Of a DNA stretch of 64,000 nucleotides, positions 1 to 26,136 are shown piece by piece. A program made the translations under genes and the position numbers. The notes beneath the pieces were generated by a model. It had not been told where the DNA came from and did not search any database. It saw nothing but the letters and a program-made list of their open reading frames with translations. Within the stretch, counting starts at the first letter, position 1. Every line of letters begins with the position of its first letter. The DNA is taken from positions 1 through 64,000 of the forward strand of contig JAUCBJ010007253.1 in the NCBI GenBank assembly GCA_032718475.1. Direction: 5' to 3'. This DNA is from Nemertoderma westbladi (Eukaryota; Animalia; Xenacoelomorpha).

Positions 1-716
1 GAAAATTTAATTATGTTCACTGATTCATTATCAGGTCACGTCCTATCTAAGGCTGCGGTTTGTTTGCATAAACCTATTTTTTTAGGCCAAGCTGTGTTGG
101 ACTTGTCAAAGTTAGATTACTACACTTTTTTCTACGATAAATTAAAGCCCATGGAAGCCGAATTAAATTGTAGTATAAATTTGCTAGGTGGGGACACGGA
201 TTCTTTTTTTTACAGTGTGTTGGTTTATCCCAACACCAATTTTTATCTGCGTTACAATCAAAAAAAGTTTTAGACTGTTCAAATTACCCTATTACGCATC
301 CGTTGTATACAGTAGAACAGAAAGGGAAATATAGATATTTAAAGGATGAAGGGAAGTCTATCCCGTTTGACCAGGTTATTTTACTTAGACCAAAATGTTA
401 TAGCTTTCGTGGGGGGTCAGTTCCAAAACGTGTCGCTAAAGGCGTAGGAAAAATGGTTATAAAAAAGAAACTCTCCCACGAATCATATTTAAAAGTATAT
501 AACGAGGTTAGCGAGCATTACGAATACAGTCAAAGGTTTCAATCTAATTTACATAAAATATACACCGTTTCACAAAGAAAAAAATCGCTAACACTGTGGG
601 AAGATAAAAGGTACTACACATCGACTAATGAAAGTCTACCTTACGGTCATTATAAAACACATTTGGATCGTAAAGCGCCTGCCCCTAAGCTTTATATGCC
701 GCCCATTATAGAATAG
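1..716 (+). pseudogene. protein-primed family B DNA polymerase, C-terminal part, one frameshift
   Basis: KPIFLGQAVLDLSK and DTDSFF in ORF 13-273. Adding one T to the T8 run at 204-211 joins it to LDCSNYPITHPLY...LKDE...LRPKCYS...AKGV...EDKRY...SLPYGHY of ORF 303-716, the typical Polinton pPolB C-terminus. Confidence 0.92.
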
Positions 717-725
717 CGGATTGCG

Positions 726-1286
726 ATGTCTTTTAGTATTGTCAACAGTAATATAAGTTTGAGGTTGGGTGATGGGTGCATATCATTCGATGTGCTGGCT
801 AAACGAATTCGAAATGGAAAACTCATCTTAAAGCCTTACCAATATATCGCCAAAATTTGCGGATGGACGTGTCTCTTTTTCCCGAGCGGTAAGGTCACTG
901 TACTCGGTAAATCACCTAAAATAAAAAAAATTATTAAGTATATATATAAGCATACTGATTATAAACTAACTTTTATTTCAATCAATAGCCAAACTTATAT
1001 TATTAACAATCTAGACATAGACTATAGCAAATTAATGAAAACGGTTGGGTTTCATTTTTTAGATAATTATTATAATGTGGAGGTGAAATATGAGCCGGAG
1101 ATATTTAATAATATTCTTGTGCAGTTTTATCGTCGGGGTAAAACTAGTTCTAATATCATAACATTTTGCGTTTTTTACTCATGAAATGTTGTGTGTATGG
1201 CAAGACCCGAGATATTTCGAGTATTTTTTCCAAAGTTTTTGAATTTTATCGGTAATTTAGATAGTCATTTAGGTAGAAATATTTAA
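726..1286 (+). pseudogene. TATA-binding protein (TBP)-like protein, in-frame TGA at 1182-1184
   Basis: Repeat 1 reads IVNSNISLRLG...LAKRIRN...TCLFFPSGKVTVLGKS; repeat 2 reads YEPEIF...CVFYS*NVVCMA. These match the TBP motifs TALIFSSGKMVCTGAKS, YEPELF and LIFVSGKVVLTG. The frame continues 33 codons past the TGA to TAA at 1284-1286. Confidence 0.8.
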
Positions 1287-1990
1287 TTTTTTCATTTTTG
1301 GTGTCAGTTTTAGGTTTGTCCGGTGGGATCTCGTTAGGTTTTTAAATAAACGTGGATATTACCATTATTCACATTATATATATAACGTGTTTTATCGGTA
1401 GTCTTAGGTTGTCAAGGGTGCTGATTTCATTTCTGATGTCAGTTTTAAATTTACATAAATCTAGTCTATCTGTCTTCGGTTTGTCAGTCTTTCTGTCAGT
1501 CAGCCAGTCTGTCAAAACTTAAAAAAGTTTGAATTTTATTAGTAATTTGGGTAGTAATATTTAATTAGAAATTTCATAAAAATTTTTCGAAAAATTAAAA
1601 TGTTCGTTTTTGAAAAATTTAAAAATTTTGAAAGTTTGCCCTTTAGGATCTCGTTTGGTTTTTAAATGCGGATATTATCATTGTTCCCTTGATATATATA
1701 TATATAATGTGTTTTATTGATGGTCTTGGGTTTTAGGGGGTGCTGATTTCATTTCTGATGTCAGTTTTTACATTTACATAAATCTAGTCTGTCTGTCTGT
1801 CGGTCTGTCAGTCAGTCAGTCTGTTAAAACTTAAAAAAGTTTGAATTTTATTAGTAATTTGGGTAGTAATATTTAATTAGAAATTTCATAAAATTTTTCG
1901 AAAAATTAAAAGTTTCATTTTTGAATAATTTCGAAATTTTGTAGGTTTGTCCTGTGGGATCTCGTTTGGTTTTTTAAACGTGGATTTGCG
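1235..1990. repeat. about 2.5 degenerate tandem copies of a ~300-320 bp unit starting in the TBP-like gene 3' end
   Basis: TTTGAATTTTAT..GTAATTT recurs at ~1238, 1528 and 1840; GGATCTCGTT recurs at ~1327, 1646 and 1957. The unit contains GTCT/GTCA microsatellite-like tracts. Confidence 0.85.
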
Positions 1991-2158
1991 TTCTTAATTA
2001 TTGATGTTAGGTTTTAAAGAGTGCCGGTTTCTATAATTGCTCGGTTTTATCGCGTGAAAAACCCCACCCACGCATATAATCGATACTATTTATAACGGTG
2101 GTGGTGTTTTATTACTTACTATTATTGTTCTCGTTTATATAAGTTATTAATATATGTA

Positions 2159-2620
2159 ATGAAATCACTCAAAGCTTTAATTAAACAATTTGACGGGGAT
2201 TTAAAGTTCTTATCTAACGCCTCCCCCAACCGTAGAAAAACCTTCTTACGTGTCGGCGGAACCGACGAACTTATAAGTTTTCTAATTAATATTATTCTAA
2301 ATGTATTAAATGGTAACGTAAAAATTCCTGAGCAAACAATCGAGAGGTTAAAACGCCATAAAAAAACAATACGCGAGATCGCTAAAAAACCAAAAGCCAA
2401 GTATCCCATTCGAATTTATCGTAAACGATTGGTGCAAAGGGGCGGATTTATAAATCTACTAATCTCTGGTTTAATGAGTGGGCTTAACGCTTATCAGAAA
2501 ATATCACCCATAATAACGGCTGTAAGAGGCAGAAAATTAGCCCAATCCCGCCGGGGGTATAGACCTACTACCTCTGGCACACGCGTCAACCGTCAAGTTT
2601 CTAGGTTTCCCATCTACTGA
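2159..2620 (+). CDS. Polinton basic core/virion protein with adenain-type cleavage motif
   Basis: K/R-rich 153 aa with LVQRGGFINLLISGL, the QxGG-F plus amphipathic segment seen in small Polinton virion proteins. Confidence 0.7.
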   Translation: MKSLKALIKQFDGDLKFLSNASPNRRKTFLRVGGTDELISFLINIILNVLNGNVKIPEQTIERLKRHKKTIREIAKKPKAKYPIRIYRKRLVQRGGFINLLISGLMSGLNAYQKISPIITAVRGRKLAQSRRGYRPTTSGTRVNRQVSRFPIY

Positions 2621-2637
2621 GTGGCTACCTATCAACA

Positions 2638-3348
2638 ATGTCCCGAGAGCCGACGATATCGCGGGAACCAATCACATCATACGACGCCTCTTTCAAGATG
2701 GGTTCGGCCATGATTATTGCGGGTCCAAGTTCTTCCGGAAAAACAGTGTTGGTATCAAAAATTGTAAAAAATAAAAATTTAGTTTTTGATATAACCCCGA
2801 AGCGTGTATTATTCTTTTATGGCGCCACCCCACCAGAATTCCCGGGTATAACACATCTATTCAAAGGTTTACCGCAAAAAATTAATTCTATTTTCCGCGA
2901 AAACGATCTAATTATTATAGACGACTTGTTAAGCGAAAGTAAGAGTGATGAGAGTTTGACAGAAAGCTTCACAAAAACCTGCCATCATACCTCCTGTTTC
3001 ATTATCTATATAACACAAAATTTCTTCAGTAAAGGGGCGGAAACACGGACTAGAAGTCTAAATGCCCAATATTGTATTTTCACAAAAAATCCCCGCGACG
3101 CAAGTCAAATAAGCTATATAGCGCGGCAAGTGTACCCAAAAAATAGCAATTTTATTGTTCAAGCATATAGTGACGCCACACAAAAACCATTCACACACCT
3201 TCTCTTAGACTTTCATCAAAAAACGGATGATAGTATAAGAGTTAGGGGTGATATTTTCAACCCATTAGGGCAAACTGTTTATCAACCCGCGAATATGAAC
3301 TCTAACACACCTCACCAACGCCCCGAGGCCCAGTCTATACCGCAGTAG
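2638..3348 (+). CDS. A32/FtsK-like genome packaging ATPase
   Basis: Walker A GPSSSGKT, Walker B LIIIDD, IYITQN motif, RTRSLNAQY and HLLLDFHQ. Confidence 0.93.
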   Translation: MSREPTISREPITSYDASFKMGSAMIIAGPSSSGKTVLVSKIVKNKNLVFDITPKRVLFFYGATPPEFPGITHLFKGLPQKINSIFRENDLIIIDDLLSESKSDESLTESFTKTCHHTSCFIIYITQNFFSKGAETRTRSLNAQYCIFTKNPRDASQISYIARQVYPKNSNFIVQAYSDATQKPFTHLLLDFHQKTDDSIRVRGDIFNPLGQTVYQPANMNSNTPHQRPEAQSIPQ

Positions 3349-3470
3349 CGACGCCGCGCTAAAACCATTTTCACACATTGTTTAGACTTTCACCGAAATT
3401 AGGTTATTATCGGTCCATGAACGTGAACTCTAGTATATAGTATTTAATATATTAATAATGATATATAACG

Positions 3471-3932
3471 ATGAAAAATAACGAGATTAGCCTCGGAAAT
3501 TTTAAGAAGTTGTATCTAGTTTCTACTTTATTAACGGATACTTATAATAATAATAATAAGAAAAGCAATAATATAATACAACCGCTAGATGGTGTGACAA
3601 TTTCATCCCAGAAAGCCAAACGATTGTTGAGTTATTTGATGCGATTCTCGCGAGACAGAGTACGGTGGAACGATAATAATAAACTCTATATAGAAAATAA
3701 ACTTATTCCCGGAGCAAATATTGATCATTTGATTGAATTGCTGACTACAAAAAAAAATAAGAAAAACACCGAAATAATTCCAGGACAAGCAACATTTTTG
3801 GGGTTATTAAAACGATTAAGGATACCAAAACGATTAATTGGTCGCGGTTGGTTGAAACGGCAAAGGGTCCGCGTGACCCCTTCCAACACAAAACGCGCCG
3901 ACGCGTGGAAACAATACGTAGGACTACAATAA
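3471..3932 (+). CDS. conserved Polinton hypothetical protein
   Basis: 153-aa ORF with WNDNNKLYIENKLIPGANIDHLI, resembling the W...I.GSNI.DL motif of an uncharacterised Polinton ORF; lies between ATPase and integrase. Confidence 0.65.
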   Translation: MKNNEISLGNFKKLYLVSTLLTDTYNNNNKKSNNIIQPLDGVTISSQKAKRLLSYLMRFSRDRVRWNDNNKLYIENKLIPGANIDHLIELLTTKKNKKNTEIIPGQATFLGLLKRLRIPKRLIGRGWLKRQRVRVTPSNTKRADAWKQYVGLQ

Positions 3933-4056
3933 ATCGACGTGTGGAAACAAAGCGCAGGATAACATTAAAATAGTAGTAGTAGTATGTTTTTTGAACGTTT
4001 CATATTAAGTATTAACTGTCATTGCAAGTGTTTTCTTCCACGACACGACACAACCG

Positions 4057-5142
4057 ATGGGGAGAATCGTAGAAAATCGAACAAACAAACGACTGGGAAG
4101 AATATATTACGATGTTTCAAATGCTGCCGGTTTCGCGAGCGTAACCAAACTAGCGAAAGCCGCTAAAGTTACGAGAAATCGCGCAAAAGAATGGTTGAGC
4201 TCCCAACGAACGTATTCCCTACACGCGCCGGCTAGGCGCCATTACCCGACATCAAAAATCTTCACGAGCGGTATTGGTGATCTATACCAAGCGGATTTGT
4301 GCGATATGCAACCTTTTAGGGGTGAGAATAATGGCTACGGTTACATACTTACTTGTATTGACTGTTTTAGTCGGAAGGCGTGGGCGTTGGGTCTAAAACG
4401 TAAAACAGGGGTCGAAATTAAAAGGGCCCTAGCCGTGATATTTAAAGATAGAAAACCTAAACGGCTAGCGGTTGATCAAGGAACTGAGTTTGTTAATAAA
4501 TTGGTGAAAGATTTCTTACTGAACAATAATGTTCATTTTTATACTTTAGTTAGCCAATTTAAAGCTAGTATCTGTGAAAGGCTGAATCGCACCCTCAAAT
4601 CTCGCATGTACAGAATTTTCACGAGGAAACAGAATAGAGAATGGATGGGTATATTGCCAAAAATATTGGTTGCATATAATAATTCAATACATAGAACCAT
4701 TGGTATGGCGCCAAACTCTGTCAATAAAAAGAATGAAACTGACCTATTTTTAAAACTATATGGGAGTGTGGGTCATCCCAATAAAAGAAAACGCCGTGCG
4801 CAGCGTCGAGTTCATTTCAAGGTTGGTGATAAGGTGCGGCTGAGTTTAGCTAGAAAGCCATTTGACAAAGGTTATACACCTAATTATACTGTAGAAATTT
4901 TCAAAATTTACAGAATAAGATTGGATCGAGAGCCGTACCCTATGTACGAAGTTGCGGACTCGAATGGGCGCGTTATAAAGGGGACATTTTATCGGCATGA
5001 AATCCAAAAGGTAATAGAACCATTTCAATTCCTACCAATTGAAAAAATAATTAAAGAAAAAGTAAATAAAAGCGGCAAAAAGCAATATTTGGTTAAATTT
5101 GTTGGTTTTGCGGCACATCGGTGGGTTGATCACGTACAATAA
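4057..5142 (+). CDS. retroviral-type (rve, DDE) integrase with C-terminal chromodomain-like region
   Basis: QADLCDM, CIDCFSR, AVDQGTEF, ICERLNRTLK and YNNSIHRTIGMAP; C-terminal IEKII...QYLVKFVGF...WV. Confidence 0.95.
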   Translation: MGRIVENRTNKRLGRIYYDVSNAAGFASVTKLAKAAKVTRNRAKEWLSSQRTYSLHAPARRHYPTSKIFTSGIGDLYQADLCDMQPFRGENNGYGYILTCIDCFSRKAWALGLKRKTGVEIKRALAVIFKDRKPKRLAVDQGTEFVNKLVKDFLLNNNVHFYTLVSQFKASICERLNRTLKSRMYRIFTRKQNREWMGILPKILVAYNNSIHRTIGMAPNSVNKKNETDLFLKLYGSVGHPNKRKRRAQRRVHFKVGDKVRLSLARKPFDKGYTPNYTVEIFKIYRIRLDREPYPMYEVADSNGRVIKGTFYRHEIQKVIEPFQFLPIEKIIKEKVNKSGKKQYLVKFVGFAAHRWVDHVQ

Positions 5143-5156
5143 TTAATTATATTATT

Positions 5157-6041
5157 ATGGATTACTTACATTTAACGTTGACTTCCAACGCCAGTCTAGA
5201 TAAATATCCTGATAACACTCCCAGCGATTTCACGATTGAGTTGTCCAAACCTATCCCCGTCAGCACAGATTGGGTCGTGGGTCTAAAGGAAATACAGTAT
5301 GTGTCGACCTATAGAAATATTGAACAAAGATCTGGAATTAGAATTGGTGAATATATGGTTGATGAGGATTTGGAATTTCATATAGCTCCATACAATCTTA
5401 TAGAAATCGATTTTAATCTTGGTCTATATGCTTCTATTGAGTCAATTTTAAACCATATTAGTGTTTATTTGAAAAATCCCGCAATATCCCACCACGGTTT
5501 CAAAGATGTTAAGTTTAACTACCAAAAACATACATCAAAAATTCGTCTACATTGTGAGAAAGGCCGCTATTTCCAATTCTATGGAGATATAATAAATATT
5601 TTCGGGTTATCGAGTTTAAAAAATAATTTAATGGGTCTTGGGGCGCTTTGGGCAATACACTATAACAAAGATGATGATTTATTGAACTTAGGCTGTAAAG
5701 ATACAAACAAAGCGGATGGAGTTGAATTCCCCGAACCTTGCGATATAACGAGGGATAGACACACAATGTTTATATATACAGATATGATTGAATCTTCTCA
5801 CGTAGGACATTCGATGGCGCCTCTTTTGCGGATAATCCCTTTGAAATGGGAACCATACTCATTCATCAACCTGGAATTCAAAAACACACATTACAAACAA
5901 TTAAGAAATAAAAAAGTGCTCGACACAATTAGTATAACGCTTCGCGACCATAAAGGAAAGCATATAGTCTTTCATGGGGGTAAAACAATTTTAGTTCTAG
6001 AACTCAAAAAACAACAACGGCGACAAAAACTACAAGAATGA
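5157..6041 (+). CDS. minor capsid protein (penton), copy 1
   Basis: N-terminal LTSNAS..YPDNTPSDF..L..PI...WVVGLKEIQY and C-terminal FIYTDMIE...APLLRII...ISITLRD...F.GGKTILVLEL, typical of Polinton mCP. Confidence 0.85.
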   Translation: MDYLHLTLTSNASLDKYPDNTPSDFTIELSKPIPVSTDWVVGLKEIQYVSTYRNIEQRSGIRIGEYMVDEDLEFHIAPYNLIEIDFNLGLYASIESILNHISVYLKNPAISHHGFKDVKFNYQKHTSKIRLHCEKGRYFQFYGDIINIFGLSSLKNNLMGLGALWAIHYNKDDDLLNLGCKDTNKADGVEFPEPCDITRDRHTMFIYTDMIESSHVGHSMAPLLRIIPLKWEPYSFINLEFKNTHYKQLRNKKVLDTISITLRDHKGKHIVFHGGKTILVLELKKQQRRQKLQE

Positions 6042-6841
6042 ACAGTTATTACGTTGTACTACCCTCAAACGCAAACCCCATAGAATTCCCGCGTAATAGC
6101 GCCGGCGATTTCCAAACAAATTTGCAAATTCCTTTACCTTTCGCTAAAGGGCAATGGTTAATAGGTTTAACCGGTATAACGTACGTATCTAGTATCAGGT
6201 ATGACAATAGCGACATTTATATAAAGGCCATAAAAAATAAAAAAATGTTTACAAGAGATGTTACTCTCCCCGAAGGATCTTTCCTATCATTGGAAAGGAT
6301 CATTGAGTACTTCAACAAAAGCCTTATTAAAGGCCAAATTAATATAATTGATAATACAGCACGCTCTGGTAATATAACCATACATTTTAAAGGTAAACAG
6401 TTGTCGATATTTGTCAGTAAACGTTTGGGTGGTTACCTAGGATTAACAGAACACGAGGTTGATGGCAAAGGTTTTATGTGTGTGCAAAATGCTGCGGGGG
6501 ATTATCACTTGCTAAGGATTGATTCGCGGAATAATAAGTACGACTGCCATAAGCATCCTAATGCTGTCGAAATACTGGAACCCAACATAAATATACATAT
6601 CAATTGCGTCGAACCTCAATTTGTAGACAATAGCGAATACCCTCTGTTGCGTAGCATACCCATAGAAGGGGAATATGGGCAAATTATTAGTCGTGAAGTT
6701 GAGGAAGTCTACTATAAAAAAGTTAATTCAACATCTAATTTACGTTATATACGAGTTCGATTGATTGGAGATTCCGGAAATTTGTTGCGCTTTCATTATG
6801 GAAATTCAATATTGACGCTTCATTTTATACGAATTGATTGA
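6038..6841 (+). CDS. minor capsid protein (penton), copy 2
   Basis: Same motifs: LPSNAN..FPRNSAGDF..L..PL...WLIGLTGITY, YPLLRSI and IRVRL...F.YGNSILTLHF. Its start overlaps the previous stop (ATGA). Confidence 0.85.
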   Translation: MNSYYVVLPSNANPIEFPRNSAGDFQTNLQIPLPFAKGQWLIGLTGITYVSSIRYDNSDIYIKAIKNKKMFTRDVTLPEGSFLSLERIIEYFNKSLIKGQINIIDNTARSGNITIHFKGKQLSIFVSKRLGGYLGLTEHEVDGKGFMCVQNAAGDYHLLRIDSRNNKYDCHKHPNAVEILEPNINIHINCVEPQFVDNSEYPLLRSIPIEGEYGQIISREVEEVYYKKVNSTSNLRYIRVRLIGDSGNLLRFHYGNSILTLHFIRID

Positions 6842-6915
6842 GATAGTCACAATTTAATCGATGTAAATTATTTATTATTTATTATTATCTGATTATCTGA
6901 AGTTATAGCGACTAT

Positions 6916-7512
6916 ATGGATAAATTTCTAAGTCGCAGCCGTGGGCGTGATTATTACCCGACGCTGGAAAACCCGGGAATAATAGTAGATTTCCAATATT
7001 ATACGCATCTTCCGCAGATCGACCAACACCCCGTTGCAACCATTTATTTTAAAGAGTTTGCGGCTTATAATACTACCATCAAATCATTAGAAAACGTATG
7101 GTTTATTAATGGTCCACCTGCAAAAATTTTAAGTTTAAGCGAATACGACCGTCTCACACAACTCGCCAATATTACGCATCACATTAATTTTGACTACGGA
7201 TTTATGGACCAAAGCGCATTTAAAATGTACATACAGGAATGGTTACAAGAAAAAAAACGGTTGGGGTTTCAAATATTAATACGCGGAATACCGAAATTAT
7301 TTATTTTAAAAAATGAATTTAATGTGAATGGAACACTTCTAGAAACGTACGGCATAAACGAAAAATATGTTGATTATGACACCAAATGCCTTTTTCACGA
7401 TTTTTCGGCAATAACAAATTGTGCCTACCATTCTGATAATAGTGATTTTTGTTTTAATTATTGTTCTGCGAAACTCGCGGTTGGTTATGGGAAATGGTTG
7501 TCGTCGAATTAA
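6916..7512 (+). CDS. divergent DnaQ/DEDD-exonuclease-like Polinton accessory protein
   Basis: IIVDFQYY...FKEFA...PP...HHINFDYG...IRG..K...LETYG...CAYH...CS...W pattern, like a recurrent Polinton accessory family; catalytic residues appear partly eroded. Confidence 0.55.
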   Translation: MDKFLSRSRGRDYYPTLENPGIIVDFQYYTHLPQIDQHPVATIYFKEFAAYNTTIKSLENVWFINGPPAKILSLSEYDRLTQLANITHHINFDYGFMDQSAFKMYIQEWLQEKKRLGFQILIRGIPKLFILKNEFNVNGTLLETYGINEKYVDYDTKCLFHDFSAITNCAYHSDNSDFCFNYCSAKLAVGYGKWLSSN

Positions 7513-7769
7513 TGTATATATAATTAATTATTGCGTTATTATATGCTACTTATATTTGTAGATTACACATATACGTATGTAGTAAAGAATTATTATTATA
7601 TGTTATAATAAATACTCCTGCGAAACTCGCGGTTGGTTATGGGAAATGGTTGTCGTCGAATTAATGTATATATAATTAATTATTGCGTTATTATATGCTA
7701 CTTATATTTGTAGATTACACATATACGTATGTAGTAAAGAATTATTATTATATGTTATAATAAATACTC
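7466..7769. repeat. perfect 152-bp tandem duplication spanning the stop of ORF 6916-7512
   Basis: 7466-7617 is identical to 7618-7769 (CTGCGAAACTCGCGG...TAAATACTC). Confidence 0.95.
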
Positions 7770-7775
7770 ATAATA

Positions 7776-8303
7776 ATGTCAGATTCTGATTTGTTTAAAT
7801 TATATAGCACCCCACAAATCCAACTGGGAAGCGGGAATTATAGCGATATACCCGTTTTTAAGGGTGGAAGCATTCTCCCGGGGTTTGGCCCATCTACTGG
7901 TATATGGAATAATAAGAATAATAAATTCGGGCGGCGATACACCCAAAATCGCCAGCGCGGACGCGGAATATTAACAACTGGTCTGGGTATATTAGCCCGC
8001 AAGTTAGGGAGAAAGGTGCTAACTAAGGCACTCCCCAAAGCAGCGAAAGTAGCACGGAAATACATAATACCGGAAGGAAAACGTATTTTACGCAGTAAAG
8101 CAGATGATTTGATAAATAAAGTGGCCGAGCGGTTAGAACCTCATCCAAAGACTCGCCAAATCGCCCAACGGGTATACAATGAATTTACAAACCCGAAAAG
8201 TAAAAAAAAGAGGAGCGGGAAACGACGACACCCAAGTGTGGGTATGAACGTTGGGCGCAAACGTAAAAAGCGAAATAATAAATGCCGCGATATTTTTATG
8301 TAA
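7776..8303 (+). CDS. basic DNA-binding core protein (pVII-like)
   Basis: QLGSG, VFKGGS and QRGRGIL motifs, very K/R-rich, ends in DIF; directly upstream of MCP. Confidence 0.75.
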   Translation: MSDSDLFKLYSTPQIQLGSGNYSDIPVFKGGSILPGFGPSTGIWNNKNNKFGRRYTQNRQRGRGILTTGLGILARKLGRKVLTKALPKAAKVARKYIIPEGKRILRSKADDLINKVAERLEPHPKTRQIAQRVYNEFTNPKSKKKRSGKRRHPSVGMNVGRKRKKRNNKCRDIFM

Positions 8304-8312
8304 CTTAACAAA

Positions 8313-9563
8313 ATGAGTAAATTAGAATTATCATTATTCTCAAGTAAAACAAATCAGCGAGAATATACATCTTCACATTTTTCGGATATCTACCCGATTT
8401 CTACTCTTGACGCGAATGCCCGACAAATCGAGTTCTTTATACCCCAGTCAAATGTTCTATATACTGATTTAAAGAATTCGAAATTTCACATTAAATATAA
8501 AATTACATGGGATGGTAATAGGGCTAACGACGATACAACCCTCCACCATCTTAATTACCCGGGTGGGTCACTATTTGAAAATTGTTCGTTATATTTAAAT
8601 GAAAAGCTAGTTGAAACCTCGAATGGGTTCTACGCCTATAAGTCTACGTTTCAGACATTACTGTTGACAGATGCTAACGAAAAACGCAGTATTTTAAGTG
8701 CTGGTGGGTATGAAGATAATGATAATAATCTAGGTGGGGTACCTGTCGCTACTGAGAATGACGTTCGTGGGAATTATGTTAAATTCGTTGTGGCCCCAAT
8801 TTTTTTAGACCTGGCAAGCCAGGACAAATTACTGCCGCCGGGAATTAACATTCGACTTCGTATAGACCGAGTATCGAATAATTTTTTTTTGAAAGTTGAA
8901 CCCCCCGCAGGATTGGTAAACCCGAGAGTTGAAATCATGAATATTAATTTAAAAATAAAACGCCACAAGATTGATGCCGAGGTTATGCGCGCGCATTTGT
9001 TGGGGTCACAAAAAAATGACTTTATTTATAACTTGTTAAAACAAGAAGTGAAAACCTTCACTATTGGCGGTGGGCAATCCAGTTATACAGAATCGAACAT
9101 AATCCAAGGGAAATTACCTAAGTATATTTTGGTTGGAATGCTTACCAACGCCAGCTTCAACGGGGAATTAAGCAGTAATCCGTTACATTTTAACCATTTC
9201 GGTTTAAATTATGCTGAACTAAACATCGACTCCCGTATTATACACGGGTATCCATATCGCCCTAACTTTCCAGAAAACAATTTTATGTTGGAATTCGAAA
9301 GTTTAATGAACGTGTTCAAGAGCTTGAGCGGCGTATTTTGCTCGCTAACACCAGAACGATTTCGTACCCAATTTCCTTTGATCGTATTTGATCTTACTGC
9401 CGGCGGGGATCAAAGCCATGAGATTCAACCTAGTGTTCATACTAGTGGGCATTTGATTCTGAAATTTAGTAATGCGCTAGTTAACACTATTAACGTTATA
9501 TTAATGGCAAGCTATGACGCTCTTCTATCTATTTCGGAAGCCAAGGAAATAATAACTGAATAA
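8313..9563 (+). CDS. major capsid protein (double jelly-roll)
   Basis: 416 aa with ELSLFS, YPIS...IEFFIP...YTDL, QDKLLPPGINIRLRI, GKLPKYILVG, NPLHFNHF and VFDLT, typical of Polinton MCP. Confidence 0.9.
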   Translation: MSKLELSLFSSKTNQREYTSSHFSDIYPISTLDANARQIEFFIPQSNVLYTDLKNSKFHIKYKITWDGNRANDDTTLHHLNYPGGSLFENCSLYLNEKLVETSNGFYAYKSTFQTLLLTDANEKRSILSAGGYEDNDNNLGGVPVATENDVRGNYVKFVVAPIFLDLASQDKLLPPGINIRLRIDRVSNNFFLKVEPPAGLVNPRVEIMNINLKIKRHKIDAEVMRAHLLGSQKNDFIYNLLKQEVKTFTIGGGQSSYTESNIIQGKLPKYILVGMLTNASFNGELSSNPLHFNHFGLNYAELNIDSRIIHGYPYRPNFPENNFMLEFESLMNVFKSLSGVFCSLTPERFRTQFPLIVFDLTAGGDQSHEIQPSVHTSGHLILKFSNALVNTINVILMASYDALLSISEAKEIITE

Positions 9564-9593
9564 ATAAACTTTTAATGATACGCGTATGCTAAG

Positions 9594-10034
9594 ATGTTGG
9601 ACTCTATACAATTAGCGAAATTCCCGGTGGGGTCCGAATACATCGGTGTTTACGCAATCGACCAATTACACATAATACACACAAAAAAAAATAAGCATAA
9701 ACAAAATTATTCATTTATTATTAATAATCAACGTATAGGCCTACCTGGACAACACTGGTCTTGCGTGCGCGTGGTTAACAGAATTGCTTATTATTTAGAT
9801 TCGTTTGGTAAAGCGCCTCCACCAAAAATATCGTATTGGTTGCATAAATATACCCAAAGGCATACTTGGAATCGTAAAATATTTCAAGCGCCACAATCGA
9901 CTCAGTGTGGTCTATTTTGTCTGTATTATTTAACCGAGGTGCCGAAAAATCCCAGAGCAATGAATATATTCACCTCTAATTTGCGGTACAATGATTTATT
10001 GTTATTACAGTGGACACTTTCATTAATAAAATAA
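9594..10034 (+). CDS. adenain-like cysteine protease (clan CE)
   Basis: Catalytic motifs GQHW, YLDSFG and Q...STQCGLFC. Confidence 0.93.
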   Translation: MLDSIQLAKFPVGSEYIGVYAIDQLHIIHTKKNKHKQNYSFIINNQRIGLPGQHWSCVRVVNRIAYYLDSFGKAPPPKISYWLHKYTQRHTWNRKIFQAPQSTQCGLFCLYYLTEVPKNPRAMNIFTSNLRYNDLLLLQWTLSLIK

Positions 10035-10612
10035 TTTATTTATTTTGGTTATGGGTATATTCAATTACGGTGTGTGAACATATTATTAGCGTTAATATTA
10101 ATAATAAATATTTATTTCTTGGGTATATAGTAATAGCAATATTTTTAATAAATATATGGGGCACGGTAAGTGATATGGGTTGGGGTCTTCACAGAAACCT
10201 TACGGGCGGGGGTCTCTTTAACGTGTGGGCGGCTGGTAAAACCGGAAATAATAATAATTAGGCACAGAGCACATTGGGACCCAAGCATCTGCCGCCCAAC
10301 TTATGCGGTTAACACAAAGGCCAGAATCTCAATCCAGGCTACGCGAATTAGGCAATAATTAAACGCTCTAACGACAATCAAAGCTCTGAGTTCAATTTAC
10401 TCACATATGTGGGCAGTTTTGCAAAAGAAATAATATATAGATAATAATATAATATAGATACGCCGCGAAGCATAGAAAATTAGTTAGCTAGTTTGCTATA
10501 TAATAACATTGAGAATAGTGATAGCGGCATCACATTATTATTTTAATTTTTAATATTATTCTTATATTCTTATAATTTATTAATTATTAAATTAATTTTC
10601 AATTCAATATCA

Positions 10613-10903
10613 ATGGCTGAAGGCGGTAAAAACCCGAAGTTATTAGTTGTCCAACCCTTCGAGTATCATCCTCCGCCATTTAATTTGGAAAAATCGAACA
10701 GGATTCTTCTCAAAAAAGCTGAGTGGGCACGCAGGGTGCGGGTGATGCACTCAATTGAATTTAACTCACGGTCAATGATCAATGATGATTTGGTCCCGAC
10801 GCGCCCGGCGATCGTCTTGCCGATCGCTGGGGGGCGATCGATGTGTGTATGCCCCCCGCGAATGGTCGGCGAAACACATACGCCGCCTCCAACCGAAAAT
10901 TAA
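10613..10903 (+). CDS. small Polinton hypothetical protein
   Basis: 96-aa ATG-initiated, GC-richer ORF after an AT-rich spacer inside the element; no recognisable motif. Confidence 0.4.
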   Translation: MAEGGKNPKLLVVQPFEYHPPPFNLEKSNRILLKKAEWARRVRVMHSIEFNSRSMINDDLVPTRPAIVLPIAGGRSMCVCPPRMVGETHTPPPTEN

Positions 10904-10934
10904 TGTAAGTAATAATTTCGACAATTAATAATTA

Positions 10935-11290
10935 TAAATACAATAACCTTACTTCGATGCTATCACTCACTTCATGGCTCGCCCCATAGGTAGAATAATC
11001 AAATTAAAATAATATTATAAATACTATAACCTTAAACTCACTTCACGGCTCGCCCCCCACAACTTGTCGCGTAGTGATAAGTATAAATACAATAACCTCA
11101 CTTCGATGCTATCACTCACTTCACGGCTCGCCCCCATAAGTCTGTGTTTATTTACCTTTTTAGTTGTTGCGTCATAACCTTACTTCGATGCTATCACTCA
11201 CTTCATGGCTCGCCCCATAAGTAGAATAATCAAATCATTAAAGAGCCGCCGTTAGTCTGTGTTTATTCACCTTTTTTTAGTCGTTGCGTC
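10935..11290. repeat. subterminal direct repeats of the Polinton
   Basis: AACCTTACTTCGATGCTATCACTCACTTCAYGGCTCGCCCC occurs about 4 times (~10945, ~11030 partial, ~11095, ~11177); AGTCTGTGTTTATT...GTTGCGTC occurs twice (~11139, ~11254). Confidence 0.85.
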
Positions 11291-11454
11291 TGTAATAGTC
11301 TATCATGTTAAAGACTTTATTAAATAAATTGGAGATGAGCTGTTGCAACTGTAATTAAAAGTGTAATATTATGGGTTTGCCCACTTTACCTATTGCGGTT
11401 CAAGGTCAAACGCCGACCGGTAGACACGAATTAATTAAATTACTTCCGTCTGTG

Positions 11455-11831
11455 GACTGGCCTTATACCGCATATGTCGCATATACACAGCGGTGACATA
11501 TGTCACATATGCACAATGGTAACCATAGTAACCATGGTGGGGTCAAGAATGGTAACCATGGTAACCATAGTAAGTGGGTGGGGCAACAATAGTAATCATA
11601 GTAAGTAGGCGGGGCACGCCTGCAAACTGGTCTTATACCGTGTATGTCACATATATACACAGCGGTGACATATGTTACATATGCACAATGGTAACCATGG
11701 TAACCATAGTAAGTGGGTGGGGCAACAATAGTAATCATAGTAAGTAGGCGGGGCAAGAGCCGTTCGGCAAATTCTTTAACATGGTAGACTATGGCAGACG
11801 CTGTCTCAATCACGTTGTTTAGCCTACTACT
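11455..11831. repeat. probable right terminal inverted repeat region with a duplicated ~170-bp block
   Basis: The block CTTATACCG..ATGTC.CATATA..CACAGCGGTGACATATG...GTAGGCGGGGCA occurs twice. Perfect palindrome GTGACATATGTCAC at 11493-11506; terminal ACTACT. Confidence 0.7.
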
Positions 11832-12149
11832 AACCATCCTTGCTCTCCCCTACTACAGTAGTAATAGTGTAGCCGGTGGCCGGTGCCACCATTATTCTGT
11901 TTTCTAATAGCTGTTTTTCATAATTGAGTTTATGTTCTGGAACATCATGTGAATAATTCGGATGTTTTTTGTCTTTATTCTAGAATATTAATTATTATGT
12001 AGCTGAGCGTTTAAAACTATCCATCTTGTTTCTTCATTACGGATAATATATATTCTAGAATTGAGTAAAAAAATACATTAAAATTATATTGATTTACGTG
12101 TCAAAATGTATACCTTTGAATTTTGATAATATCTCCCGAAGTTATTGGT

Positions 12150-12320
12150 CAAATTGAAAACGGTATTCAGATGCTGAATCTGCAGTTGAAGGCGGTTCAA
12201 ATGACGTCTAGATTACATTGGAAATACGAAAAATAAAGCCTACGGCGGAGGCTAAATATTTCCAAATAGACGATTTTTAGCGACTTGTTGTATCGAAATA
12301 GCTCAGAAATTGAAAAATGA
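12150..12320 (+). repeat. dispersed repeat fragment, inverted homolog at ~58990-59150
   Basis: GAATCTG..G..GGCGGTTC..AT..TCT.GATTAC..T...GAAAAAT...GCTAAATATT.CCAAATA is shared with the reverse complement of 58990-59150. Confidence 0.6.
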
Positions 12321-13775
12321 TACAGTATAATTATTTACATCATTGTGTGCAAAGTAGCCCTTTGCAGCGTTATGACCCGAGTTTATTTATGTACCGAGCG
12401 AGCGCAGCGAGGGAGGTTTACATAAATAAACAAGGGTCTTTAACGGTGAACAAGTGACCTTTGCAAGCAATGATGCGGTTTGTAATTTTGTATCAGCGTT
12501 CGGTATGTGAAGAAAGGATTTTATGGATACTCATTTATACATTTTTAATCATGTACTATATCGAATATAAGTGAAATTTATTAACAGGTACACAGAATGA
12601 ATTATACATTTAAATATAATTAAAGTTTATTGTTGTTATCTCATGCATGGATGTGATAAATATTTTTCTTTGTTCATTTTCTCTAAAGTATCGTCTATTT
12701 GACGTTCCGTCATAATGGAATACAACACGTTAAACAATTATTTACATACATTAGCCAGTCCTGAAGTCCCGTCACTGCAAACTGGATAATAAAGCATCAC
12801 TCATTAACATAAGTGGAAATAATACATTCTGGAATACGGTAATTGAAGTTGTTTCCATGTCATTGATTACTTTGCAGCGTTACGACTAATTCACCAGAAC
12901 GCTGTTAAGTTGAAATAATGTAACAAAATAGGTTATGACTTCAGGGGTACATAAAGATTTCGTAGCAAGTGAAGTTTTGAATATACAGTAGTGAATTTTG
13001 AAACAACAGCAGGTTCCCAAAAACGTGACGTCATCATTCTAAATAATCCAAAATATTCGACTGTCGATGAAGCCTTTCTGCACATTGTTTCATCCCTCCT
13101 TACCACCGCTATCAAAATTGAAAGTAAATCAAATCCTGCCCAATAAAGTGAAACTTTCCACTCCCTCAGTCTTCTCGTACCACTAATACTTTGGTCATGG
13201 TCATATAATAAAGGTAGGCCTACTGTCTCGGTGAATAAAATGCGTCGAGAATAGTGAAAAAAAAGTTATACTTTTTTCCCATGTGATAAATAATTATTAC
13301 GTAAACAATAATGTAGTAACTGAAAGGAAAATTCGAGCAATGTATGATATGGATCATTCGCATATTAATTATCACGTCACAGATAAACCAAATATAGGGC
13401 ACACCATCATGTATAGAAAGTAGGTATATTATTATTAGACAATACCCAATCATCAAAGTACATTTCTGAAAACATTTTATTAATTCCTAGAGAGCGATCC
13501 ACGCCTGTGTCATCTTGGACAATGATCTAACACAGATCTGTAGATGGGATAGTACCTTACTGCCTTATACAACACACTGGCTGACAGGTACAGCCGGCCT
13601 ACTGGACCGCGCTACCGGTACCGGCGGTACCTAGTACCAGATTCTGATCTGCTGATAGTCCGATTTACCTTTTTACTTATTTAAGATCAGCACTGTTCAA
13701 CCGTCAGACCGTTTAACTTCATACTTGGATACCGGTACCGTTTTTGAACCACCACGATTGACGATGGGTGCCCTG

Positions 13776-15163: not shown

Positions 15164-15696
15164 AACCAGTTCAGCAGTGATGTAGCCCACTAGCGGGTCT
15201 CTGTTGAACATATATTGTCTGAAAGTCTGCGGCAATGATCGCGTTTGCGTTTGTATCTGGGTTGGGAGGTATTGATGTGGAAGTATTACGGTGCATTGTT
15301 TGGAGGAGTGCCGGTTATCCATTCCGTCTATGAATTATTGCTATTTGATTTATATTGATGAAATATTTAACTGTAATATTATATATTTTTATTTCATTTG
15401 GATTTCTACTATTTTTAGGGTGAATTTATCGGTTTACCTTGAATCAGGATTTCCGGGAAGTTTTCAGTATATGTGGCCCAGTATTTTGGACAAATTGATT
15501 TCACTAAAGAAAATAAATATTATCACGGAATATTAGTGAGATAAACTGATAACTACAATTAGTTTATTTCTGATGGTTTACTGACTTATTAATTCAATAT
15601 AACCAATATTTAAATCCTGGTGCAACTGTTAATCGGATATTGAATAAATTTACTTCACGAGTTATACTTCGGGATCCCGTTCATTAAACACTAACT

Positions 15697-18600
15697 CTAT
15701 GTCCGATCTATCTATGTGTCCGATCTATCTATGTGTCCGATCTATCTATGTGTCCGATCTATCTATGTGTCCGATCTATCTATGTGTCCGATCTATCTAT
15801 GTGTCCGATCTATCTATGTGTCCGATCTATCTATGTGTCCGATCTATCTATGTGTCCGATCTATCTATGTGTCCGATCTATCTATGTGTCCGATCTATCT
15901 ATGTGTCCGATCTATCTATGTGTCCGATCTATCTATGTGTCCGATCTATCTATGTGTCCGATCTATCTATGTGTCCGATCTATCTATGTGTCCGATCTAT
16001 CTATGTGTCCGATCTATCTATGTGTCCGATCTATCTATGTGTCCGATCTATCTATGTGTCCGATCTATCTATGTGTCCGATCTATCTATGTGTCCGATCT
16101 ATCTATGTGTCCGATCTATCTATGTGTCCGATCTATCTATGTGTCCGATCTATCTATGTGTCCGATCTATCTATGTGTCCGATCTATCTATGTGTCCGAT
16201 CTATCTATGTGTCCGATCTATCTATGTGTCCGATCTATCTATGTGTCCGATCTATCTATGTGTCCGATCTATCTATGTGTCCGATCTATCTATGTGTCCG
16301 ATCTATCTATGTGTCCGATCTATCTATGTGTCCGATCTATCTATGTGTCCGATCTATCTATGTGTCCGATCTTCTATGTGTCCGATCTATCTATGTGTCC
16401 GATCTATCTATGTGTCCGATCTATCTATGTGTCCGATCTATCTATGTGTCCGATCTATCTATGTGTCCGATCTATCTATGTGTCCGATCTATCTATGTGT
16501 CCGATCTATCTATGTGTCCGATCTATCTATGTGTCCGATCTATCTATGTGTCCGATCTATCTATGTGTCCGATCTATCTATGTGTCCGATCTATCTATGT
16601 GTCCGATCTATCTATGTGTCCGATCTATCTATGTGTCCGATCTATCTATGTGTCCGATCTATCTATGTGTCCGATCTATCTATGTGTCCGATCTATCTAT
16701 GTGTCCGATCTATCTATGTGTCCGATCTATCTATGTGTCCGATCTATCTATGTGTCCGATCTATCTATGTGTCCGATCTATCTATGTGTCCGATCTATCT
16801 ATGTGTCCGATCTATCTATGTGTCCGATCTATCTATGTGTCCGATCTATCTATGTGTCCGATCTATCTATGTGTCCGATCTATCTATGTGTCCGATCTAT
16901 CTATGTGTCCGATCTATCTATGTGTCCGATCTATCTATGTGTCCGATCTATCTATGTGTCCGATCTATCTATGTGTCCGATCTATCTATGTGTCCGATCT
17001 ATCTATGTGTCCGATCTATCTATGTGTCCGATCTATCTATGTGTCCGATCTATCTATGTGTCCGATCTATCTATGTGTCCGATCTATCTATGTGTCCGAT
17101 CTATCTATGTGTCCGATCTATCTATGTGTCCGATCTATCTATGTGTCCGATCTATCTATGTGTCCGATCTATCTATGTGTCCGATCTATCTATGTGTCCG
17201 ATCTATCTATGTGTCCGATCTATCTATGTGTCCGATCTATCTATGTGTCCGATCTATCTATGTGTCCGATCTATCTATGTGTCCGATCTATCTATGTGTC
17301 CGATCTATCTATGTGTCCGATCTATCTATGTGTCCGATCTATCTATGTGTCCGATCTATCTATGTGTCCGATCTATCTATGTGTCCGATCTATCTATGTG
17401 TCCGATCTATCTATGTGTCCGATCTATCTATGTGTCCGATCTATCTATGTGTCCGATCTATCTATGTGTCCGATCTATCTATGTGTCCGATCTATCTATG
17501 TGTCCGATCTATCTATGTGTCCGATCTATCTATGTGTCCGATCTATCTATGTGTCCGATCTATCTATGTGTCCGATCTATCTATGTGTCCGATCTATCTA
17601 TGTGTCCGATCTATCTATGTGTCCGATCTATCTATGTGTCCGATCTATCTATGTGTCCGATCTATCTATGTGTCCGATCTATCTATGTGTCCGATCTATC
17701 TATGTGTCCGATCTATCTATGTGTCCGATCTATCTATGTGTCCGATCTATCTATGTGTCCGATCTATCTATGTGTCCGATCTATCTATGTGTCCGATCTA
17801 TCTATGTGTCCGATCTATCTATGTGTCCGATCTATCTATGTGTCCGATCTATCTATGTGTCCGATCTATCTATGTGTCCGATCTATCTATGTGTCCGATC
17901 TATCTATGTGTCCGATCTATCTATGTGTCCGATCTATCTATGTGTCCGATCTATCTATGTGTCCGATCTATCTATGTGTCCGATCTATCTATGTGTCCGA
18001 TCTATCTATGTGTCCGATCTATCTATGTGTCCGATCTATCTATGTGTCCGATCTATCTATGTGTCCGATCTATCTATGTGTCCGATCTATCTATGTGTCC
18101 GATCTATCTATGTGTCCGATCTATCTATGTGTCCGATCTATCTATGTGTCCGATCTATCTATGTGTCCGATCTATCTATGTGTCCGATCTATCTATGTGT
18201 CCGATCTATCTATGTGTCCGATCTATCTATGTGTCCGATCTATCTATGTGTCCGATCTATCTATGTGTCCGATCTATCTATGTGTCCGATCTATCTATGT
18301 GTCCGATCTATCTATGTGTCCGATCTATCTATGTGTCCGATCTATCTATGTGTCCGATCTATCTATGTGTCCGATCTATCTATGTGTCCGATCTATCTAT
18401 GTGTCCGATCTATCTATGTGTCCGATCTATCTATGTGTCCGATCTATCTATGTGTCCGATCTATCTATGTGTCCGATCTATCTATGTGTCCGATCTATCT
18501 ATGTGTCCGATCTATCTATGTGTCCGATCTATCTATGTGTCCGATCTATCTATGTGTCCGATCTATCTATGTGTCCGATCTATCTATGTGTCCGATCTAT

Positions 18601-24560: not shown

Positions 24561-24659
24561 TATGTACGATTGTCAATATCATCCTTATTGCGCCGATAAA
24601 GTTAAACTACTAATTAATTACATTTTATTGTAATTAATCCTATTATTATTATTATGTAG

Positions 24660-24782: not shown

Positions 24783-25166
24783 GTAAGTTACAGATATATG
24801 TTTTTTAATTAATATGAGGTTGTGCTATTGTTCTAGAGGCTTGGCTTAAAGAATAAACTACCATAGGGGCTACTGATGATAATAATGTAATTAAATGAAA
24901 AATGTAATCTGTGGGGTGGGTGGAATCTGTTTGTACAGGGGTGAATTCGTATTAGCGCGAATATGGGGAACCAAATTAATTTGAGGGAATACATTGATGA
25001 ACGCGTGCGACCATGGGTAGCGCTTCTCTCTACCGCAGCATACAGATCTGGCATGGTGGTTAAATCCGTTGCCTTGCATTCACTGGGTTCCAAGTCCTGG
25101 GTTCGATCCCTTTTAATTCGCTTTTACGGAGTCTTGATGCTTCTATTACCCCAATTAATGTTTTAG

Positions 25167-25510
25167 ACGATACAGATTATCAATGTCGGTTAAAAACTGA
25201 CATTGTGGAGGAAGTTGCCACTGTGGAGGCTGAGAAGGTAGAAGTTGGGAAGGTGAAAGTGGAGGGAAAAAATACGGAAACAGAAAGTCTGAAAGATGTA
25301 AAGGACGAAACCAAAGAAGCTGATGACAAGGATAATGCAGATATTAAAGACGTAGATAAAGATGTGAGCATGGATGATGATGACGAATCGGAAGAAGATA
25401 TGGAATCAGATTCGGATGAATCATCTTCGGTGGAGGTGGAACAGTCCAGCTCCGAGGATGAGGAATCATCTGACGATGATGTCGTTGATAAATCAGTTCT
25501 TAATGAAGAT
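25167..25510 (+). CDS. PPM1G: PPM1G-like exon 5, acidic insert
   Basis: TTTTAG acceptor; D/E/S-rich tract characteristic of PP2C-gamma; donor GTGAGT. Confidence 0.85.
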
Positions 25511-26136
25511 GTGAGTTAATTACCGGTACTTATTTCACGGGTATTTACTATCTATAGTTCCGACTTTATTTCTCCAATAACTCCAATTACAAAATCCTTG
25601 TACCCTCGCTATTCTGGTTAGCGATTACCATTAAGATTTGAATATTTTTATCGCTTCTCTACATTCCAGACCAAATAACACCTAATTATTCCTCCACTCG
25701 AATCGAATATCTATAGATCCTTAAAGTTCCCCGTTACAACTCAAATATTACGAGGGTCTCTGCTTTACGTTTACCACACTGATTTACTTAAACAGTCAAT
25801 TAACTCGAATTCCTAACTGCAACTATGGCTACAAAGTTTTTTGGTGAATTAATAACTATTTATTTTACAAAAAGTAAGTTTTTTGTCGGAATATATAATC
25901 CGCATTATCGAGGAATAGTTAAATTATGTTTTAAAGCATGAAAAAATGCTTTTAATATTTCGAGCAAAAGTCTGGACTTTATTGACCGCACTTTTGCGGA
26001 CAATAAAGGGATATTTTAAAGAAACATCAAGTATTTTTAGTTTCTTTAGTATTTTTAATTCTTTTCGTAACTAAGATTAGATTTAATTAATAAGGAACTG
26101 TTATTTAGTTGCGTTATTTTTATTATTATTACTTAG

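What the first reader, a model, noticed from the sequence alone, without database searches (positions are those of the whole stretch)
726..1286. Polinton/Maverick encodes its own TATA-binding-protein-like gene
Seen: directly after pPolB, intronless and co-oriented, is an ORF with both TBP repeats. It has LAKRIRN...TCLFFPSGKVTVLGKS (cellular IALRARN...TALIFSSGKMVCTGAKS) and YEPEIF...VFYS*NVVCM (cellular YEPELF...IFVSGKVVLT). Established: YEPE is the TFIIB-binding stirrup and these Phe residues intercalate into the TATA box; three of the four appear retained. TBP homologs are known from large nucleocytoviruses but are not in the standard Polinton gene set. Inference: this lineage carries a captured, highly diverged TBP that could redirect host Pol II/TFIIB to viral late promoters, or act as a decoy.
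Basis: partly seen in the sequence, partly recalled or inferred. Interest (0 to 1): 0.88.

Follow-up and report, generated by a model that had tools for sequence, protein, structure and literature searches.

The report
Polinton carrying its own TATA-binding protein
A virus-like jumping element, apparently present in many copies in what is likely an animal genome, carries a heavily altered relative of the cell's TATA-binding protein (broken by a stop codon in this copy), which would likely let it steer the host's transcription machinery to its own genes.

Summary
Window 726-1286 is an intronless two-lobed TBP homologue, 9 nt after the pPolB-like gene of a Polinton, with an in-frame stop at codon 153. 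Read with X at the stop, it hits Pfam TBP (E 4e-4, below the curated cut-off) and a TBP profile (HHalign 92%, residues 5-161); each lobe alone beats 2,000 of 2,000 shuffles. It keeps three intercalating Phe (Tyr at the fourth) and both TFIIB-contact Glu, but has lost the central Val and Thr positions. DNA-run contigs show the gene in the abundant form of the element and, at the same spacing, in a lineage about 14% diverged, so it is not a one-off retrocopy. That most copies lack the stop is inferred, not shown. No close relative, TFIIB partner, shared promoter motif, selection signal or expression was found; its origin is unresolved. Most likely role: an element-specific promoter factor using host TFIIB and Pol II (about 50%). 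In nine paper searches the only Polinton-related mention was a figure label (Starrett 2021). This scan has noted Polinton TBPs on other DNA (28 findings, at least 3 genomes).

The parts
726..1286 (+). TBP-like gene, 186 codons, interrupted at codon 153 in this copy
726..962 (+). N-terminal TBP lobe (residues 1-79): N7, Y40, L50, F52, G55, K56, G61; lysine-rich second helix
963..1283 (+). C-terminal TBP lobe (residues 80-186): F127, F150; register of its first strand uncertain (N87 or N95)
1089..1100 (+). YEPE stirrup with the two Glu (E123, E125) that contact TFIIB in cellular TBP
   Evidence: sequence; PMC7221094 section 11
1182..1184 (+). in-frame TGA inside the second-lobe motif; cuts off the last strand and helix in this copy
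1..716 (+). 3' end of a pPolB-like gene, frameshifted near 203 in this copy; runs off the window
   Evidence: (two overlapping frames), table 4; identity from motifs by eye, no library hit
1345..1350 (+). first AATAAA after the TBP-like gene, possible poly(A) signal (inferred)
1308..1985 (.). AT-rich spacer of two ~320-nt units, 83% alike, each with a (TA)n run and a (TCTG)n-like tract
2638..3348 (+). A32-like packaging ATPase
   Evidence: Pox_A32 E 0.009, AAA_14 E 8e-4 (weak)
4057..5142 (+). retrovirus-like integrase with chromodomain
   Evidence: rve E 1.8e-10, Chromo E 0.0017
5157..6841 (+). two ORFs (294 and 267 aa), possibly minor-capsid-like (by size and place; untested)
   Evidence: no library hit
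8313..9563 (+). 416-aa ORF, likely major capsid protein (by size, place and recalled motifs)
   Evidence: no hit
9594..10034 (+). adenovirus-like cysteine protease
   Evidence: Josephin E 2e-4, Peptidase_C5 E 0.07 (weak)
11824..11831 (+). right end of the element, CTACTACT; the only ACTACT in 1-13,700
   Evidence: (AGT)2//(ACT)2 end motif in PMC8097293

Best explanation
This is a Polinton gene for a highly diverged two-lobed TBP homologue that likely works, in copies without the stop, as the element's own promoter-recognition factor. Shown: TBP homology, position in the element, presence in the abundant form and in a divergent lineage, and the pattern of kept and lost residues. Inferred mechanism: the saddle would still kink AT-rich DNA with F52, F127, F150 and Y40; polar residues at the central Val and Thr positions would shift it away from the canonical TATA box; the kept E123/E125 stirrup would recruit host TFIIB and so Pol II, since no TFIIB or RNA polymerase gene was detected in the visible 11.8 kb. 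Made next to the DNA polymerase, it would switch on the packaging and capsid genes. The copy in this window is likely a decayed one (stop here, frameshift in the polymerase).
For: Homology. The alignment-free model, though poor (pLDDT 39), has a helix/strand order compatible with two TBP lobes, including the helix after the stop. With a 53-TBP alignment the model reaches pLDDT 76 and all 44 PDB matches at E<=0.001 that are listed are TBPs; this is biased by the alignment. Family gene: contig depth over 835-1251 is like the rest of the element in runs X1 and X2 (5,680 against about 2,100-6,800; 43,923 against about 20,000-91,000). One unbranched X1 contig of depth 3,345 spans 876-1207 with 2 differences and no gap. 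A 711-nt X1 contig is 86% alike in pPolB (238-658) and 55 of 60 alike at 840-899 with the same spacing. Selective retention: at 17-20% identity to eukaryote-type TBPs, which are 40-52% alike among themselves, the Phe, Asn, Gly and Glu positions persist. Reading through the stop raises the Pfam score from 16.4 to 20.6 bits. Precedent: KSHV ORF24 keeps TBP-like Phe on a polar-rich surface and reads TATTWAA (PMC12529657, abstract and introduction).
Against: No motif is shared upstream of the 11 element genes beyond the null, by k-mer or Gibbs search. The 8 listed substitutions inside the ORF are 5 non-synonymous and 3 synonymous, which shows no purifying selection (few sites, near-identical copies). 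GC by codon position is flat (0.32/0.30/0.31), whereas the other element genes have higher GC1. The invariant Pro-Gly after F127 is Asn-Asn, and an Asp may sit at a DNA-facing Val position. The only allele read in full is broken; the letters at the stop in other copies were not shown. The Pfam score is below the cut-off. The element's left part is outside the window and could hold a viral TFIIB.
Confidence: 0.5

Rival explanations
1. Decoy: the protein titrates host TFIIB (or Brf1/Brf2) or occupies host TATA boxes to dampen host transcription, and does not activate element promoters.
For: The stirrup Glu are kept while the DNA-reading centre is much changed; no shared element promoter motif was found. 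Brf1/Brf2 use the same TBP interface (PMC7221094 section 11).
Against: Three Phe plus a Tyr and both Asn are kept, which a pure protein decoy would not need; an integrated element inherited through the germ line gains little from a general shut-off (inference).
Confidence: 0.15
2. Dispensable relic: a once useful gene now carried along without selection, with the stop perhaps shared by many copies.
For: Stop in this copy; 5 non-synonymous to 3 synonymous variants; flat codon-position GC; one divergent contig over 999-1192 has 3 gap letters; letters at the stop in other copies not shown.
Against: Frame open for 152 codons and again for 33; no frameshifting indel at 3% or more inside codons 1-183 in four runs (table 4); two other divergent contigs (799-929, 1172-1249) have 16 and 9 substitutions and no gap; this copy also has a polymerase frameshift that the high-depth contigs lack.
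Confidence: 0.15
3. Half of an orthogonal viral TBP-TFIIB pair whose TFIIB gene lies in the element's left part, outside the window.
For: Almost all viruses with a TBP-like gene also had a TFIIB-like gene (PMC7221094 section 11). Earlier scan notes describe Mavericks with adjacent TBP and TFIIB (unchecked AI notes).
Against: None of 69 ORFs of 48 aa or more in 1-11,831 hits a TFIIB family or has a CxxC..CxxC ribbon; both Glu are of the cellular type, whereas viral TBPs keep C.L3.2 in only about 40% of cases.
Confidence: 0.1
4. The TBP fold is reused as a DNA-bending protein for replication or integration at the AT-rich spacer or the termini, not for transcription.
For: Sits 9 nt behind the polymerase-like gene and just before an AT-rich duplicated spacer; loss of sequence-reading residues.
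Against: Does not explain the kept YEPE stirrup.
Confidence: 0.06
5. Not a TBP homologue, or a one-off retrocopy of host TBP.
For: No single-sequence hit to a TBP in PDB or in 1.84 billion representatives; Pfam below cut-off; the alignment-free model matched no TBP; the AU test does not reject grouping with eukaryote-type TBPs (p 0.62).
Against: Motif order and spacing match over 133 columns; controls; gene present in the abundant form and a divergent lineage; 17-20% identity with an open frame does not fit neutral decay of a host copy.
Confidence: 0.04

Closest known systems
Cellular TBP family (Pfam PF00352; e.g. human core 1cdw, yeast 1ytb, TFIIB complex 1vol/1c9b)
   Same: Two lobes in the same order and spacing; N7, L50, F52, G55, K56, G61, YEPExF, F150 kept; about 180 residues.
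   Different: 17-20% identity; below the Pfam cut-off; fourth Phe is Tyr; both central Val, both Thr and the Pro-Gly after F127 replaced; encoded by a mobile element, without introns.
TBP-like proteins of Nucleocytoviricota (PMC7221094: passages and section 11 read; BFVD matches)
   Same: Viral, diverged, keeps the L5.1-type Phe in both lobes.
   Different: Those viruses nearly always encode a TFIIB-like partner and often lose the stirrup Glu; here both Glu are kept, no TFIIB was detected in the visible part, and the element is a small integrating one.
Beta/gammaherpesvirus TBP mimics, KSHV ORF24 (PMC12529657: abstract and introduction read)
   Same: Nuclear element relying on host Pol II; TBP-like Phe with a more polar DNA surface.
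   Different: ORF24 is a large multidomain protein in a six-protein viral complex, binds Pol II directly and reads a defined TATTWAA; this is a bare 186-aa core with a TFIIB stirrup and no identified target motif.
'TBP' gene label in a MELD virus with adintovirus-like PolB (Starrett et al. 2021, PMC8502044, Fig. 5 legend; section 3.4 read, figure not seen)
   Same: TBP-like gene in a Polinton-related midsize dsDNA element.
   Different: Only a label, in the section on non-animal datasets; I could not see which element carries it; no residue, copy or function analysis in the text read.
Polintons/Mavericks of vertebrates (PMC8097293: passages read)
   Same: Integrase, ATPase, protease, intronless ORFs, (ACT)2 right end.
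   Different: [quoted passage not shown]

Membership tests
TBP family (PF00352) | Profile match to the TBP domain | tested here: met
   Pfam E 4.1e-4 with 2 stretches; HHalign 92.3; shuffles
TBP family (PF00352) | Score above Pfam's curated cut-off (22.9 bits) | tested here: not met
   20.6 bits: a remote homologue, not a canonical member
TBP family (PF00352) | Two lobes forming a saddle | tested here: inconclusive
   Each lobe scores alone; alignment-free model too poor; the good model was guided by TBPs
TBP family (PF00352) | Four intercalating Phe | tested here: not met
   Three Phe (52, 127, 150) and Tyr40
TBP family (PF00352) | C-lobe stirrup Glu pair (C.L3.2, C.L3.4) for TFIIB | tested here: met
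   E123, E125; role from PMC7221094 section 11; mapping of these labels to YEPE is my reading
TBP family (PF00352) | Central Asn/Val/Thr TATA-reading residues | tested here: not met
   Asn kept; Val replaced (N9; D97 or Q89), Thr replaced (L60, M158)
TBP family (PF00352) | Binds TATA DNA and TFIIB | not testable with these tools
   needs bench work
Polinton/Maverick | Retrovirus-like integrase | tested here: met
   rve E 1.8e-10
Polinton/Maverick | Protein-primed PolB | tested here: inconclusive
   Only the 3' end is in the window; motifs by eye; no hit
Polinton/Maverick | A32-like ATPase and adenovirus-like protease | tested here: met
   Weak Pfam hits: Pox_A32 E 0.009; Josephin E 2e-4, Peptidase_C5 E 0.07
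Polinton/Maverick | Jelly-roll capsid proteins | tested here: inconclusive
   ORFs of fitting size and place, no hit; not folded
Polinton/Maverick | (ACT)2 end motif | tested here: met
   ACTACT at 11826-11831
Polinton/Maverick | [quoted passage not shown] | not testable with these tools
   left end outside the window; no genome held
Viral orthogonal TBP-TFIIB system | TFIIB-like gene in the same genome | tested here: inconclusive
   0 of 69 ORFs in the visible part; left part unseen; a very diverged TFIIB could be missed
Herpesvirus-type late switch | Shared non-canonical TATA-like motif before late genes | tested here: inconclusive
   No motif above null in 250 nt upstream of 11 genes; one copy only, start sites unknown, AT-rich DNA, low power

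The most novel reading that the evidence does not exclude
A small integrating DNA virus of animals runs a one-protein transcription switch: a bare TBP core with a re-tuned DNA surface that borrows host TFIIB and Pol II to turn on its virion genes. With the different TBP-bearing Polintons noted elsewhere in this scan, it would be a recurrent, undescribed regulatory module of Polintons.
Probability: 0.35. Interest if true: 0.85.

Novelty: new variant of a known kind. Interest (0 to 1): 0.6.

Why it matters
How Polintons time the expression of their capsid genes is open; virions have not been observed (PMC8097293, abstract in search listing). A self-encoded TBP would be a direct handle on that question and would bring the early-to-late logic of large DNA viruses down to a small integrating element. 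Keeping the host-type TFIIB contact without a visible viral TFIIB would differ from both giant viruses and herpesviruses. The limits are that this copy is broken, no target motif was found and function is untested.

Tried and rejected
No relatives of the protein: word-indexed search, 0 of 64 candidates; phmmer over 1.84 billion representatives gave 1 hit, a tandem-repeat artefact; viral contigs gave 0 loci and metagenome contigs 0 of 596 stretches; a six-sequence profile gave 14 TBPs, none close; no look-alike among earlier scan windows. The element's own capsid-like protein, integrase and ATPase also found no relatives, and two integrase motif scans found nothing, so these collections hold little of this element family and the blanks are not evidence of rarity. 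None of six element proteins hit the 369 fetched loci. PDB by sequence, NCBIfam and PHROGs: no TBP hit. Alignment-free model: pLDDT 39, best Z 4.3, no TBP listed, inconclusive. BLASTP of the two halves against each other: no hit. Tree (29 of 54 rows): branch 4.19 long, placed beside an archaeal-type TBP, not trusted; AU test on 21 rows p 0.62; no host TBP was available. Promoter motif: none above null; a TATAAAA 75 nt before the ATG lies in polymerase codons and TATAWAW occurs 27 times in 10.4 kb, so it is not evidence. No RNA holder listed. Run X4 covers only 15 of 30 bins of 640-1320; a hole proves nothing. No language-model look-alike search and no complex prediction with TFIIB were obtained, so both stay open. 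Paper searches found no study of a Polinton TBP beyond the Starrett label; one supplement file of PMC8502044 had no 'TBP'; figures, bioRxiv supplements and most subscription papers were not seen and may bear on novelty.

Full report
Observation. All searches used X at the stop. A stop-free run as long as the first 152 codons appeared in 4 of 20,000 shuffles of the same DNA.

Is it TBP? The only Pfam family under E 0.1 is TBP (E 4.1e-4, 20.6 bits, two stretches; cut-off 22.9); the natural ORF alone gives 16.4 bits. I fetched reference TBPs from viral and metagenome contigs by motif and checked one against PDB TBPs (E 8.5e-66). Against 13 of them HHalign gives probability 92.3 over 133 columns, residues 5-161. 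The HMM score of 22.2 bits is not reached by any of 2,000 shuffles (best 7.4) and is the best of 1,028 ORF segments in the window. With a lobe profile from 53 TBPs, query left out, the lobes score 12.6 and 9.7 bits and beat all 2,000 shuffles each, the second narrowly. Among 19,978 ORFs the 14 best phmmer hits are all TBPs, which make up 116 of them. These references were selected by the YEPExF motif, so that motif's contribution is partly circular; the Pfam hit, centred on the N-lobe, is not. The alignment-free model is poor (pLDDT 39) and matched no TBP, though its helix/strand order fits two lobes. The alignment-guided model (pLDDT 76) matches TBPs, which shows compatibility only. I put TBP homology at about 0.93.

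Anatomy (alignment A2). Kept: N7, L50, F52, S54, G55, K56, G61, N95, Y122-E123-P124-E125, F127, F150, S152, V156. Changed: the fourth Phe is Y40; the central Val positions hold N9 and D97 (Q89 in an alternative register that the alignment-free model and the lobe symmetry suggest; the guided model is weak at 84-88); both Thr are replaced (L60, M158); the Pro-Gly after F127 is Asn-Asn. Four Phe intercalate in cellular TBP (PMC12529657, introduction), and two C-lobe Glu contact TFIIB and its paralogues (PMC7221094 section 11). So the DNA-kinking and TFIIB-contact residues are largely kept and the centre that reads TATA is not. Identity to four eukaryote-type TBPs is 17-20%, against 40-52% among them.

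Context. Downstream on the same strand lie an A32-like ATPase, an integrase with chromodomain (rve E 1.8e-10), capsid-sized ORFs and an adenovirus-like protease. The element ends at CTACTACT 11824-11831, matching the (ACT)2 end motif described for Mavericks. A host PP2C gene follows about 1.9 kb later. The polymerase and capsid identities rest on motifs, size and order, not on hits. None of 69 ORFs in the visible part resembles TFIIB; the left part is outside the window and no genome is held.

Other copies. Four DNA runs of one organism, from three studies, hold the stretch. In X1 and X2 contig depth over the gene is in the range of the rest of the element; depth is no copy number, but many overlapping variant contigs in one run indicate many copies, integrated or not. 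One X1 contig of depth 3,345 spans 876-1207 with two differences and no gap; one X3 contig of depth 1,851 spans 1115-1201 with two differences. The tool did not list these differences. Every difference it did list has a contig with at least 31 letters to its end, and neighbouring contigs match the window exactly or differ only at listed places, so the two probably lie in 1177-1201, the 25 nt that contain the stop. This is an inference (about 0.75 that the abundant form is open); the letters were not shown. The polymerase frameshift near 203 is absent from high-depth contigs of X1, X2 and X4, so this copy looks decayed. A 711-nt X1 contig differs at 58 of 421 nt in the polymerase and at 5 of 60 nt in the TBP-like gene with the same spacing, so a second lineage carries the gene at the same place. 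Against selection: the eight listed substitutions in the ORF are 5 non-synonymous and 3 synonymous, one divergent contig has 3 gap letters, and codon-position GC is flat.

Origin. No close relative was found in any collection, but neither were relatives of the element's core genes. The tree gives a branch of 4.19 changes per column and no trustworthy place; grouping with eukaryote-type TBPs is not rejected (AU p 0.62). Host capture or acquisition from another virus cannot be told apart; a recent retrocopy is excluded by the divergence and by the family distribution.

Mechanism. I commit to an element-specific promoter factor that bends an AT-rich, probably non-canonical site and recruits host TFIIB and Pol II, switching on packaging and capsid genes (0.5). 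The step with least support is the target: no motif is shared upstream of the 11 genes beyond the null, unlike what earlier scan notes report for other Polintons, although one AT-rich copy without start sites gives little power. Rivals: decoy 0.15, relic 0.15, half of a viral TBP-TFIIB pair 0.10, non-transcriptional DNA bending 0.06, not TBP or retrocopy 0.04.

Prior knowledge. Viral TBP-like proteins are a known kind: 107 viral genomes in PMC7221094 (passages), and herpesvirus ORF24-type mimics (PMC12529657). [quoted passage not shown] 2021 (PMC8502044 and its preprint 10.1101/697771; passages and section 3.4 read, figure not seen). Term searches in the main texts of PMC8097293, 10.1101/2023.08.22.554363, 10.64898/2026.10.13.758929, 10.64898/2026.06.19.733378 and PMC12220804 found no TBP. 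This scan's own unchecked notes list 28 Polinton-TBP findings in at least 3 genomes and 20 with TFIIB in at least 1; none is a sequence look-alike of this gene.

Verdict. A real, remote TBP homologue that is a family gene of a Polinton, broken in this copy, with a plausible but untested role in element transcription. It works like a TBP by fold and key residues but fails canonical membership. New variant of a known kind; interest 0.6.

Noticed in passing
window 6916-7512 (+): 198-aa element ORF with weak hits to Maelstrom (E 0.06) and DnaQ exonuclease (E 0.11) and a Cys/His-rich end; could be a piRNA-pathway-related or DEDD nuclease accessory gene.
   Followed up: no
window 7466-7769: Exact 152-nt tandem duplication between ORF 6916 and ORF 7776, each unit with a TATATAA.
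   Followed up: no
window 10426-10842: Contig depth falls several-fold here in X1 and X2, so this segment (with a 96-aa ORF at 10613) seems to be in a minority of copies.
   Followed up: no
window 10931-11801: Nested subterminal direct repeats (62, 69, 58 nt) and a 33-nt inverted pair 11286-11318 / 11769-11801 near the right end.
   Followed up: partly
window 1-10400, runs X1, X2, X4: Element depth relative to a contig just beyond the right end (place 11946) is some hundreds-fold in X1 and X2 but about 1-2-fold in X4; may mean large differences in copy number between samples or episomal amplification, but depth is not a copy number.
   Followed up: no
window 13764 onward (+), with an acidic exon near 25064-25519: Host PP2C phosphatase gene (PPM1G-like by recalled motif) starts about 1.9 kb from the element's right end; first exon hits PP2C structures at E 3e-17.
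   Followed up: partly
window 15650-24600: About 9 kb of a short-unit satellite that reads open in three + frames; not a gene.
   Followed up: no
window 47824-49203 (-) and 56257-57867 (+): Two near-identical LINE-type reverse transcriptase fragments in opposite orientation.
   Followed up: no
L008:869-2566 and L027:6584-8281: Giant-virus-like contigs with a 566-aa protein whose N-terminal part is a diverged TBP with a degenerate first lobe, fused to a long basic repeat region.
   Followed up: no
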